Positions 15,001-18,000 of a stretch of 64,000 bases of DNA are shown here, piece after piece. The stretch lies in assembly GCF_056712565.1 (NCBI RefSeq), contig NZ_CM160072.1; one strand, given 5' to 3'. Numbering within the stretch: position 1 is the stretch's first letter; the number at the start of each line of letters is the position of its first letter. Position numbers: made by a program.

Positions 15001-18000
15001 CCGGCAGAATTACGGCACGAGTCAGGAAGGATAAGACCACAGGCTGGATTTTTGCAGAGGCAACGATTCAGGCAATTGATGGTGAGTTAAAAATAGGCTC
15101 TCAGATACAGTATTCTCCTGAGCGGGGTGGGGCAACAGTATCTGGTGACTATATTTATCTTGCCACCCCACAAGTAGAGAATGGGCCGTGTGTATCATCA
15201 TTTATTATTTCAGGAGGCAGCGCAACGACAAGAGCCAGTGATTTGGTTAGTATCCCCACCAGAAATAATCTTTATAAGTTACCATTTACTTTTTTACTTG
15301 AGATTCATAAAAACTGGGATATTGCACCAAACGCCGCACCCCGCGTGTGGGATATAGCAGCAGCCAATACCGGGCAATCAGCAATTGCAGCAATCAACAG
15401 AGGTAGTGGTAAGTTATATATGAGTCTGTCAAACCCTTCAGGCTTGTATGTTAATAGCGCAGCGACAGATGTATTTGCAGAGAAAACCACATTTGGATGT
15501 ATTGCAAAAGCTGATGGTCACTTTCATGTGGTGACAAATGGTAAAGCGGTTAATGAAGTTTATTGTGAATATAATGGTGTGACCGCTGATAAAAATATCC
15601 GATTTGGAGGGCAGACGAATACTGGAGAACGACATCTGTTTGGCCATATTCGCAATTTCCGCATATGGCATAAAGAATTAAATGACAGGCAATTAAAAGA
15701 GGTCGTATGAAAGATTTAACTTTGAAGTTTCATGACAAACTGCAGTTTAAGGCCTTCCTGTCATCTCTTGACTGGGAGGAGGATGAAGACTTCCAGAATA
15801 AACTGTTAGTCGATGAAATTGGTTTCACCTACACAGAAACAGGGGTAACAGAAGAGGGAGAACCTGTCTGTGTCCGGAATGACGGTTATTTTGTCAACAT
15901 TCGCATTCTTGATGACTTGTTTGATGTTTCTGTATTCTCTGATTATGTCGTGGAGCTGGAAACACCGCTTCGGGAATGGAGCTGAAAGGAGGAAATAATG
16001 GATATAAGCCCCTTACTTCATGCGCTTTGTGCTGTGGCTGCGCAGATACTGGTTGGTCTTTTTACCGGAAACTGGGCTTACGGAGCGATAGCCGGTTGTA
16101 CGTTCTTCATTGCGCGTGAACATACCCAGGCAGAATATCGCTGGATTGAAATGTTCGGGCATGGCAAGCGAATGAATATGCCGTGGTGGGGCGGTTTTGA
16201 TCCGCGAGCTTGGGATGTGGCAAGCCTGATGGATTTTGCTGTGCCGGTGGTGGCGTGTCTGCTGGTCTGGCTGTTGGTTAATCGTGGGTGAAAAAAGGTG
16301 AGCTGTATATGCAACGGAGGAAGAAACCCCGTTGCTGGAAGCCAGGAAAAAGTATCGGGTGTTGCTGTCCTCGGATGTTGTGCTAATTGGGTGATAACAG
16401 ATCCTGTGTATGGGAGTTTCCCTTTTTGCGTGCGTTGATGCTGGTAACGGCAAACGTCATGATGAACAAAACCGCGAATAAGACGACAATCGTCGGAGCT
16501 GGTGCGCTGTCGATAAAAAAGGACAACCAGACACCAGTCATTGACACTATTACCGATATGCCAGTCGCCAGTAGGAGCGCAATATGAAAGCGTTGTGTCA
16601 GGAGTACCGCAATGGCGCCAGGCGCAATGAGCAGAGAAATGGAGAGAATGATACCTACCGCTTTCAGCGTCGCCACAATGGTCAGAGAGACCATGCACAG
16701 CAGCCCATAATGCAGCCATCTCGTATGCAAACCGCTTACCTGCGCCTGTTGATAATCAAAGCTGAACAGCAAAAAATCCCGCCATTTTACGCTAATAACA
16801 AGTGTAACCAGCCCGGCAATAATCATCGTCTGGATTATATCGCCGATGGTTATCCCGAGCATGTCGCCGAAAAGAATATGGTCAAGATGTACGTCTGGTT
16901 TGACTGCAATATACAAGATCAGACCTGCGGCAAACATGCCAGAAAAAACAATCCCCATCACTGTATCTTGCTTGATTCGGCTGTTGTCTTTCAGGTATCC
17001 CGTCGCCACCGCGCAGAATACTCCGGCGACGAATGCCCCTGTAGCCAAAGGTAACCCCAGAATCCAGGCAAGCACGATTCCAGGAAAAACCGCATGACTC
17101 ATCGCGTCACCCATCAGTGCCCAACCTTTCAGGACCAGAAAGACCGACAGCAGCGCACAGGGTATGGAAACTACCAGTGAAATCAGCAGTGCGTGACTCA
17201 TAAAGGTGAACTGCAGTGGCTCCAGTAATAATGCCATCATGAGCGATCCTCCAGCGCCTTATGCGCACGCCGACGATTTGCCAAAAGCCCATGGGTGGGC
17301 GCAAAGACAAATGCTAAAAGAAACAGCAGTGTCTGCGCCACCACGATGATTCCACCTGTCGCGCCGTCCAGAAAGTAACTGACCCACGCGCCGAGGAAAC
17401 TAGTTACACTGCCAATAGTTACAGCAATCATGAGCAGGCGGGGAAAACGATCGGTTAACAACCATGCTGTTGCACCGGGAGTCACCACCAGACAGATCAC
17501 CAGAAAGGCACCAACCGTTTGCAGCGCCGCAACGGTCGAAACCGACAGCAGGGTGAAGAAGATGAGTTTTAATCTGCCCGGATGCAATCCAATAGCACGG
17601 GCGTGATTCTCGTCGAAAAAGGTCACCATAAGATCTTTCCATTTGAAAAAAAGCACGATGATCGAGAGAATGCCAATGATAGTGAGTTGCAGGATATCCG
17701 CCGGATCGATTGCCAGAATATTGCCCAGGACGATGGTCTGAATGTTCACAGATGTCGGGTTCAATGACACCATAAACAGCCCCAGGCCAAAAAAGGACGA
17801 GAAGATCAGACCGATGATGGCATCTTCTTTTAAGCGGGTGCGTTGGTTAAGAAACAGCATGCTGCCCGCAGCCAGTCCGCCGGAAAAGAAGGCTCCCAGA
17901 GAAAACGGAAGCCCCAGCATATATGCCCCCGCAACACCCGGGACAATAGAGTGCGACAACGCATCGCCAATCAGCGACCAGCCTTTTAGCATCAGATAGC

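What the first reader, a model, noticed from the sequence alone, without database searches (positions are those of the whole stretch)
15707..16291. Two small unknown genes coupled to the tail fibre gene, where lambda has tfa
A 92-aa acidic protein starts on an ATGA overlap with the stf stop, and a 97-aa predicted membrane protein follows 12 nt later. Neither resembles lambda Tfa as I remember it. The first could be a fibre chaperone (inference from translational coupling). The second, a small multi-TM protein just before the sit cargo, fits the profile of superinfection-exclusion or receptor-masking proteins that lambdoid phages encode next to tail fibre genes.
Basis: inference. Interest (0 to 1): 0.55.

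Follow-up and report, generated by a model that had tools for sequence, protein, structure and literature searches.

The report
Fibre partner gene plus portable membrane gene
Two small uncharacterised genes follow the side tail fibre gene of this phage-21-like prophage: the first almost always accompanies this type of fibre tip and probably helps build it, and the second is a highly conserved little membrane protein found after the host-recognition genes of many unrelated phages, with no known function.

Summary
The window matches Escherichia phage 21 (99.9% over 15400-16400). ORF1 (15707-15985, 92 aa, pI 4.1) overlaps the stf stop by ATGA. ORF2 (15998-16291, 97 aa) follows 12 nt later behind an AGGAGG site. 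Both are under purifying selection. Neither matches Pfam, NCBIfam or PADLOC; both fall in PHROG families of unknown function.

ORF1 is a near-obligate partner of the roughly 430-aa Stf C-terminal domain. An ORF1-family gene follows that domain in 63 of 67 diverse viral loci, usually within 20 nt. This supports a Tfa-like accessory role without homology to Tfa. A tfa 3' remnant after ORF2 shows that this cassette displaced tfa.

ORF2 (UniProt name 'Ybl63', PHROG 1443) is a separate module. It is a confidently modelled three-helix membrane protein with an invariant polar and aromatic core. It lies directly after receptor-binding genes of lambda-like, P22-like, P2-like and phage-plasmid genomes. 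It also survives as an orphan chromosomal gene in Aeromonas, Leclercia and Silvania. The 701-bp ORF1-ORF2 query matches 1912 of 5426 complete E. coli genomes. A role in protecting the envelope (superinfection exclusion) is plausible but unproven.

The parts
14394..15710 (+). C-terminal domain of the side tail fibre Stf, about 430 aa (NCBIfam NF048003 'phage head spike fiber domain', PHROG 1419/5939). It has conserved flanks and a hypervariable middle.
   Evidence: Searches give the family matches. One search shows GC falling to 43% here, against 55% in the Stf N-terminal part. One search shows the segment-wise mosaicism.
15707..15985 (+). ORF1: a 92-aa acidic alpha/beta protein (PHROG 1361, distantly related to PHROG 18574). 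It is a near-obligate downstream partner of the Stf C-terminal domain and a putative fibre assembly or accessory protein.
   Evidence: establish the ORF and family. One search gives the AlphaFold2 model (pLDDT 92.7). Searches show the linkage (63 of 67 loci). GC is 42%, the same as the Stf C-terminal domain.
15986..15997 (+). 12-nt spacer carrying the AGGAGG ribosome-binding site of ORF2. This is the left boundary of the portable ORF2 module.
   Evidence: One search shows the sequence. In one search, similarity to phages PhiR49_1 and HannyBb begins at about window 15985-15987.
15998..16291 (+). ORF2: a 97-aa three-helix membrane protein (UniProt name 'Ybl63', PHROG 1443) with the invariant core AREHTQAEYRWI..FG.GKR.NMPWWGGFD.RAW.
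   Evidence: Searches give family, homologues, alignment, model and fold matches. GC is 53%. dN/dS is 0.14.
16310..16383 (+). 3' remnant of a tail fibre assembly gene (tfa), with no start codon. It is the scar of the recombination that replaced the stf C-terminus and tfa with this cassette.
   Evidence: (hit H130) shows 95% identity to tfaR over 16310-16350; the extension to 16383 follows the reading frame translated. Searches show 'tail fiber assembly protein, missing N-terminus' pseudogenes at the same place in other genomes. One search gives the tfaR context.
16383..19832 (-). sitDCBA iron/manganese ABC transporter cargo, convergent with the fibre operon.

Best explanation
The region is the 3' end of a horizontally exchanged receptor-binding cassette that replaced the stf C-terminus and tfa of a lambdoid phage. 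It holds two functionally distinct genes.

(1) ORF1 is the dedicated partner of the roughly 430-aa 'head-spike-fibre/LamG-like' Stf C-terminal domain. It is made in step with Stf through translational coupling. It most likely acts as a folding or trimerisation chaperone, or as a retained accessory subunit, on the conserved scaffold of that domain. This makes it a functional analogue of Tfa but not a homologue.

(2) ORF2 is an independent, portable gene for a small three-helix inner-membrane protein. It travels at the downstream end of receptor-binding modules of many phage types. It most likely acts on the cell envelope to the benefit of the carrier, by blocking entry of other phages at a conserved inner-membrane step. 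It probably does not take part in fibre assembly.

Shown here: gene reality, selection, linkage statistics, module boundaries and predicted folds. Inferred: chaperone activity, membrane topology and the exclusion phenotype.
For: ORF1:
- An ORF1-family gene follows the Stf C-terminal domain in 63 of 67 evaluable diverse IMG/VR loci, and 56 of those 63 lie within 20 nt of the fibre stop.
- The linkage holds in three metagenomic relatives where the fibre domain is only 25-33% identical, and there the ORF1 start overlaps the fibre stop.
- It holds in prophages of Comamonas, Pantoea and Chelativorans and in an SSU5-like phage-plasmid.
- ORF1 and the Stf C-terminal domain share low GC (42-43%), against 53% for ORF2.
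- The real tfa is reduced to a remnant, so this fibre has no other chaperone candidate nearby.

ORF2:
- It has 577 homologue clusters across Proteobacteria, and 22 columns are invariant among 48 homologues 57-93% identical to it.
- The model has pLDDT 93.
- It lies immediately after a P22-like tailspike, P2-like fibres or Tfa, pectate-lyase-like and other spikes, and J-type fibres.
- Only 7 of 67 loci with the Stf C-terminal domain carry it.
- Orphan copies sit at a conserved non-phage locus in four Aeromonas species, and in Leclercia and Silvania chromosomes.
- In phage Gally it sits behind a strong terminator and an AT-rich region with a promoter-like site, in the classical conversion locus between tailspike and int.
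- dN/dS is 0.14.
Against: ORF1:
- Its identity tracks the conserved flanks of the fibre domain (r 0.82 and 0.69) but not the hypervariable middle (r about 0.3). Part of that correlation may reflect physical linkage and lineage structure.
- The data cannot separate a chaperone from a structural adaptor.

ORF2:
- No promoter or terminator of its own was detected in the window. The conserved module begins only at the ribosome-binding site, so here it looks like a late-operon gene rather than a lysogen-expressed moron.
- In several phages its start overlaps the upstream receptor-binding gene.
- It matches no PADLOC model, no annotated PHROG and no PDB structure.
- Homologues also occur in virulent Aeromonas jumbo phages.
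- Topology is unresolved. The positive-inside rule puts the conserved loop in the cytoplasm, but the TMHMM note in the phage 21 record implies the periplasm.
Confidence: 0.45

Rival explanations
1. ORF2 is a late-acting lysis or envelope factor, such as a holin-like protein, antiholin or lysis-timing modulator, expressed with the tail genes.
For: It is about 100 aa with three hydrophobic helices. It is co-transcribed with or coupled to late receptor-binding genes in the window and in several other phages. In Comamonas-type prophages it lies directly upstream of the holin, endolysin and spanin genes.
Against: In lambda-like, P22-like and P2-like E. coli phages the lysis cassette lies elsewhere, and phage 21 has its own holin (established knowledge of phage 21 lysis genes, not tested here). 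One Comamonas locus has a separate recognised holin right after ORF2. ORF2 lacks a charged C-terminal tail, with a mean of 0.56 K+R. It matches no holin PHROG. An invariant polar loop and orphan chromosomal copies are not typical of holins.
Confidence: 0.15
2. ORF2 masks receptors indirectly. It would inhibit or redirect a conserved inner-membrane step of surface-glycan synthesis (for example WecA, Wzx, Wzy, Wzz or WaaL). That would protect the lysogen, or the progeny phage, from adsorption dependent on O-antigen or LPS.
For: It is consistently adjacent to glycan-binding or glycan-cleaving receptor-binding proteins: tailspikes, pectate-lyase-like spikes and lectin-like fibre domains. From established knowledge, not tested here, small hydrophobic O-antigen-polymerase inhibitors and gtr or oac conversion genes sit next to tailspike genes in epsilon15, P22 and Sf6. 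High conservation implies a conserved target.
Against: No enzyme domain or partner genes are present. The gene is kept in O-antigen-less E. coli B within the Rac prophage. No direct evidence exists.
Confidence: 0.15
3. ORF2 is a functional component of the fibre module, for example a membrane platform for fibre or spike maturation.
For: The trio of Stf C-terminal domain, ORF1 and ORF2 recurs in gamma-, beta- and alpha-proteobacterial prophages. ORF2 is tightly spaced from or overlaps the upstream receptor-binding or accessory gene.
Against: Sixty of 67 loci with the Stf C-terminal domain lack ORF2. ORF2 follows unrelated receptor-binding proteins that carry their own chaperones, such as S74 domains or Tfa. 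Orphan copies persist with no phage genes nearby. No known fibre assembly pathway needs a membrane protein (established knowledge).
Confidence: 0.08
4. ORF1 is not a chaperone. It would be either an immunity or inhibitor protein for an activity of the fibre domain, or a structural adaptor that docks the second short fibre encoded between ORF1 and ORF2 in most E. coli prophages.
Confidence: 0.15

Closest known systems
Lambda Tfa / Mu U / P2 G tail fibre assembly proteins (Pfam Caudo_TAP)
   Same: ORF1 is encoded immediately downstream of the fibre gene. It travels with the fibre C-terminal domain through recombination. It occupies the exact genomic slot of tfa, and a tfa remnant is still present.
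   Different: There is no sequence similarity. ORF1 is 92 aa, against about 190 aa for TfaR. The predicted alpha/beta fold has no informative neighbour. ORF1 does not co-vary with the variable part of the fibre tip.
Small inner-membrane superinfection-exclusion proteins (HK97 gp15, T4 Imm, P22 SieA)
   Same: ORF2 is a small phage-encoded membrane protein with no enzymatic domain. It is encoded within or next to virion-gene operons and kept in prophage remnants.
   Different: No homology was detected, and no phenotype is known. ORF2 is far more conserved across host genera than those proteins. It is specifically tied to the 3' end of receptor-binding genes.
Receptor-blocking proteins encoded next to receptor-binding genes (Cor of phi80/N15/HK022, Llp of T5)
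   Same: The gene position is directly beside the receptor-binding gene.
   Different: Cor and Llp are outer-membrane proteins or lipoproteins specific for one receptor, FhuA. ORF2 has no lipobox; the Cys at position 11 is not conserved. It is predicted to be an integral helical membrane protein, and it accompanies many different receptor-binding proteins.
Lysogenic-conversion morons at the tailspike-int junction of P22-like phages (gtrABC, oac)
   Same: In the Lederbergvirus phages JEP4 and Gally, ORF2 occupies this locus. In Gally it lies behind a terminator with a promoter-like site.
   Different: ORF2 is a single 97-aa protein with no glycosyltransferase or acetyltransferase partner. In the window and in JEP4 it is coupled to the late gene rather than independently transcribed.

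Membership tests
Tfa / Caudo_TAP tail fibre assembly proteins | Sequence match to the Pfam or NCBIfam tail fibre assembly models | tested here: not met
   The Pfam scan of ORF1 gave only LUD_dom at E 0.16. NCBIfam gave no family.
Tfa / Caudo_TAP tail fibre assembly proteins | Encoded directly downstream of the fibre gene and inherited with the fibre C-terminal domain | tested here: met
   The window has an ATGA overlap. An ORF1-family gene follows the domain in 63 of 67 diverse loci.
Tfa / Caudo_TAP tail fibre assembly proteins | Required for folding or trimerisation of the fibre tip | not testable with these tools
   This needs co-expression or deletion experiments.
Phage superinfection-exclusion membrane proteins | Homology to a described exclusion or defence protein | tested here: not met
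Phage superinfection-exclusion membrane proteins | Expressed from the prophage independently of late genes (moron with its own promoter and terminator) | tested here: inconclusive
   No promoter was found in the window, and the module starts at the ribosome-binding site. A terminator plus a promoter-like site lies upstream in phage Gally. Orphan chromosomal copies must have their own signals.
Phage superinfection-exclusion membrane proteins | Reduces infection by other phages when expressed | not testable with these tools
   No experiment was possible, and no paper mentions the protein.
Cor/Llp-type receptor-blocking lipoproteins | Signal peptide with a lipobox and outer-membrane location | tested here: not met
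   No conserved lipobox Cys is present in alignment A1. The model shows three long hydrophobic or amphipathic helices.
Class I holins | Three transmembrane segments, a charged C-terminal tail, adjacency to the endolysin gene, and a holin family match | tested here: not met
   Three helices are present. The C-terminal tail carries a mean of 0.56 K+R. No holin PHROG matches. ORF2 is not next to lysis genes in the window; it is adjacent only in some Comamonas prophages.

The most novel reading that the evidence does not exclude
ORF2 ('Ybl63', PHROG 1443) defines a previously unrecognised, pan-proteobacterial class of small inner-membrane proteins. Phages carry it as a standard 'tail-end' accessory of receptor-binding modules, and bacteria domesticate it. 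It would block a universal inner-membrane step of phage genome entry or of surface-glycan export. This would be a generic, receptor-independent exclusion factor, matched in about one third of complete E. coli genomes. Alongside it, ORF1 would found a new family of tail-fibre chaperones unrelated to Tfa, gp38 or gp57A.
Probability: 0.25. Interest if true: 0.7.

Novelty: new variant of a known kind. Interest (0 to 1): 0.5.

Why it matters
ORF1 gives a specific, testable candidate for how a very widespread class of fibre tips is assembled. This 'head spike fibre/LamG-like' domain occurs in lambdoid prophages, phage-plasmids and many environmental phages. The result matters for engineering host range with these fibres, because a fibre swap would probably need ORF1 to come along.

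ORF2 is one of the most common uncharacterised prophage genes in E. coli. The ORF1-ORF2 query matched 1912 of 5426 complete genomes, with a median of two places per genome. ORF2 is strongly conserved across Proteobacteria and sits in a position where phages keep genes that alter the cell surface or block competitors. If it proves to be an exclusion or envelope-modifying factor, it would affect phage-therapy host-range predictions for many clinical E. coli lineages, including those that carry the sit iron/manganese cargo next to it.

Tried and rejected
- Family scans. Pfam, NCBIfam and PADLOC scans of both proteins found nothing.
- PDB sequence search. A profile of ORF2 found nothing.
- Literature. 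Searches for Ybl63, the WP accessions, locus tags and PHROG ids returned no papers. Searches on phage 21, sit and side tail fibre, and on exclusion genes next to tail fibre genes, gave nothing specific.
- Fused Stf-ORF1 structure prediction. I considered it and dropped it, because the tool returns neither coordinates nor PAE, so an interface could not be judged.
- ORF1 as an immunity protein. Rejected as the main reading because ORF1 does not co-vary with the hypervariable fibre segment.
- ORF2 as the phage holin. Rejected for this phage type (see the membership test).
- Simple promoter scan. It found no convincing ORF2 promoter in the window. This is weak negative evidence only.
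Full report
**What is there.** Window 15400-16400 is 99.9% identical to Escherichia phage 21 (OL657228.1) and close to many lambda-like phages. In the phage 21 record the genes run J, terminator, side tail fibre (CPT_21_22), hypothetical protein (CPT_21_23), putative membrane protein (CPT_21_24), then sitDCBA on the other strand.

The stf stop TGA is at 15708-15710 and the ORF1 ATG at 15707, giving the ATGA overlap. ORF1 is 15707-15985 (92 aa, pI 4.1). A 12-nt spacer with AGGAGG follows, and ORF2 is 15998-16291 (97 aa).

Both are genuine genes. They match PHROG 1361 (E 3e-41) and PHROG 1443 (E 2e-58), both of unknown function. 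Nei-Gojobori dN/dS among E. coli copies is 0.14 for ORF2 (1199 pairs) and 0.36 for ORF1 (14 pairs). The 701-bp query matches 1912 of 5426 complete E. coli genomes, and 1125 genomes have a match covering at least 80% of it. Neither protein matches Pfam, NCBIfam or PADLOC.

**A tfa scar.** Window 16310-16350 is 95% identical to an internal and C-terminal part of tfaR of the Rac prophage (one search hit H130). Translating that frame over 16311-16385 gives ATEEETPLLEARKKYRVLLSSDVVL. RefSeq annotates 'tail fiber assembly protein, missing N-terminus' pseudogenes at the same place after ORF2 in other genomes.

In E. coli B REL606 the Rac prophage reads stf, ORF1, ORF2, tfa remnant, pinR. A Rac prophage of the K-12 type, seen here in strain HS-02, reads stfR, tfaR, pinR. 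The cassette [Stf C-terminal domain, ORF1, ORF2] therefore replaced the original stf C-terminus and most of tfa by recombination.

**ORF1 goes with the fibre domain.** The last roughly 430 residues of Stf carry NCBIfam NF048003 ('phage head spike fiber domain') and match PHROG 1419/5939. A search of 1.84 billion representative proteins found only 53 ORF1 relatives. In three distant ones with contig context (about 30-40% identical to ORF1), the upstream gene is a 25-33% identical homologue of the same Stf C-terminal domain, ending in the same ...RIWH..L.D.Q.K motif. In each, the ORF1 homologue starts on the last base of that gene.

I then collected 80 diverse IMG/VR loci seeded on a Comamonas version of the fibre domain (23-100% identity to the seed). 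I searched them with an iterated ORF1 profile. Of 67 loci with at least 300 nt after the fibre ORF, 63 have an ORF1-family gene. In 56 of those 63 it lies within 20 nt of the fibre stop, and 14 have the 4-nt overlap. The same trio occurs in prophages of Comamonas, Pantoea and Chelativorans and in a 108-kb phage-plasmid. ORF1 and the fibre domain share 42-43% GC, against 55% for the Stf N-terminal part and 53% for ORF2.

Co-variation is not what a specificity-matched adhesin or an immunity protein would show. Across 68 unique pairs, ORF1 identity correlates with the conserved flanks of the domain: Stf 251-330 gives r 0.82 and the last 40 residues give r 0.69. It correlates poorly with the hypervariable middle, Stf 331-650, at r about 0.3. 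That middle segment is exchanged independently. Part of the flank correlation may come from linkage and lineage structure.

**ORF2 is a separate, portable module.** Similarity of some phages to the window begins exactly at the ORF1 stop, so they share only ORF2 and its ribosome-binding site.

In most E. coli lambdoid prophages a second short fibre gene lies between ORF1 and ORF2. It encodes 234 or 346 aa and matches PHROG 4563 or the C-terminus of PHROG 3299. ORF1 and ORF2 are directly adjacent in phage 21 and also in Comamonas-type prophages.

**Context of ORF2 elsewhere.** ORF2 lies immediately downstream of the receptor-binding gene in unrelated tail types:
- P22-like phage JEP4: it overlaps the tailspike stop and int follows.
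- P22-like phage Gally: it lies after the tailspike.
- A P2-like Leclercia prophage: it starts at the base after the stop of a 939-aa fibre carrying a Peptidase_S74 domain.
- Halomonas phage phiHAP-1: it overlaps the Tfa gene and lies before the sheath gene.
- A metagenomic prophage: it follows a pectate-lyase-like spike.
- Siphophage HC6: it follows a tailspike.
- Comamonas testosteroni: it follows a J-type central fibre.

Only 7 of 67 loci with the Stf C-terminal domain carry ORF2, so the fibre does not need it.

In a one-genome-per-species scan, ORF2 also appears as an orphan gene without phage neighbours. It sits at the same locus in Aeromonas aquatica, rivipollensis, media and taiwanensis, and the rivipollensis locus lies between a pirin gene and a RIO1 kinase gene. 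In Leclercia it sits between a LysR regulator and a methionine synthase. In Silvania it sits between ttcA and an OmpC/OmpN-like porin gene. From my own knowledge, ttcA is the Rac attachment neighbourhood in E. coli, which would suggest a fully decayed prophage that kept only this gene.

In Gally, ORF2 is preceded by a 9-bp-stem terminator and a 190-nt AT-rich region with a promoter-like site. That is the layout of a moron. From established knowledge, this is the locus where P22-like phages keep conversion genes.

In the window itself I found no ORF2 promoter or terminator. There, ORF2 should be read from the late transcript.

**Mechanism for ORF2.** Fibre assembly is unlikely, given the orphan copies, the absence from most loci with the fibre domain, and the presence next to receptor-binding proteins that have their own chaperones. 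A holin role is unlikely for this phage: there is no charged tail, no holin family match, the lysis genes lie elsewhere, and one Comamonas locus has a separate recognised holin right after ORF2. Receptor-specific masking of the Cor or Llp kind is unlikely, because the same conserved protein accompanies very different receptor-binding proteins and it has no lipobox.

What remains is a protein acting on a conserved envelope target. The best candidates are a block of genome entry at the inner membrane, or interference with a conserved step of surface-glycan synthesis or export. I give the exclusion or envelope-protection class about 0.35-0.5 in total, and lysis-related roles about 0.15.

Topology is unresolved. 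K+R counts place the conserved loop in the cytoplasm, with 5.5 K+R against 0.15, 0.02 and 0.56 in the other exposed segments. The TMHMM note in the phage 21 record (two transmembrane domains, N-in, C-in) would place the loop in the periplasm.

**Verdict.** The genes are already catalogued as hypothetical proteins and PHROGs, but neither has a described function.

ORF1 appears to be a new, Tfa-unrelated family of fibre accessory proteins, with very strong comparative support. ORF2 is a very common, strongly conserved, uncharacterised small membrane protein tied to receptor-binding modules. Interest is moderate at 0.5. The hypotheses are clear and cheap to test on a gene present in roughly a third of complete E. 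coli genomes, but nothing here overturns current concepts.

Noticed in passing
window 16310-16383: A 3' remnant of a tail fibre assembly gene lies between ORF2 and the end of sitD. Positions 16310-16350 are 95% identical to tfaR, and the frame reads ATEEETPLLEARKKYRVLLSSDVVL. The same remnant follows ORF2 in other prophages with different downstream cargo (pinR, or a methyltransferase).
   Followed up: yes
window 14394-15710 (Stf residues about 251-688): The fibre C-terminal domain is itself mosaic. Residues 251-330 and 651-688 are conserved (mean pairwise identity 68-74%), whereas 331-650 is hypervariable (mean pairwise identity 39-50%; 15-100% against the window copy) and swaps independently between prophages. 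GC drops from 55% to 43% at about 14400.
   Followed up: partly
L003 4298-5002; L018 4918-5958 (E. coli prophages related to the window): Most E. coli lambdoid prophages carry an extra short fibre protein between ORF1 and ORF2, which phage 21 and the window lack. It is 234 or 346 aa, with a T4 gp37-like or PHROG 4563 tip ending in a coiled coil. This suggests branched or dual side fibres in those phages.
   Followed up: partly
L005, L095, L098, L100, L101 (Aeromonas); L097, L105, L106 (Leclercia); L102, L103 (Silvania): Orphan ORF2 homologues lie in chromosomal contexts with no phage genes nearby. Four Aeromonas species share one locus. The Silvania copy lies between ttcA and an OmpC/OmpN-like porin gene, which resembles the flanks of the E. 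coli Rac prophage.
   Followed up: partly
L219 3289-3355 (phage Gally): A strong terminator after the tailspike gene is followed by an AT-rich region with a promoter-like site in front of the ORF2 homologue. Here ORF2 looks like an independent transcription unit at the P22-type conversion locus.
   Followed up: partly
window 13610-13629: A terminator-like hairpin (8-bp stem with 6 G-C pairs, then a T run) lies between J and stf, as annotated in phage 21. If it is functional, expression of stf, ORF1 and ORF2 would depend on read-through, such as antitermination of the late transcript.
   Followed up: no
L002 2442-4564 (phage D2): An IS element (three mobile-element ORFs) is inserted between stf and ORF1 in phage D2. 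It separates ORF1 and ORF2 from the fibre gene.
   Followed up: no
window 13644 vs 13650: The mechanical ORF call starts stf at GTG 13644 (MNMAVQ...). The phage 21 annotation starts it at ATG 13650 (MAVQ...) behind a ribosome-binding site.
   Followed up: no
L131 3929-4192 (Aeromonas phage PS1); L133 4001-4162 (phage HC6): Shorter or partial ORF2-like sequences occur in virulent phages. In the PS1 jumbo phage one lies after a gene annotated DarB-like. In HC6 there is an unannotated fragment after the tailspike gene. The family is therefore not restricted to temperate phages.
   Followed up: partly
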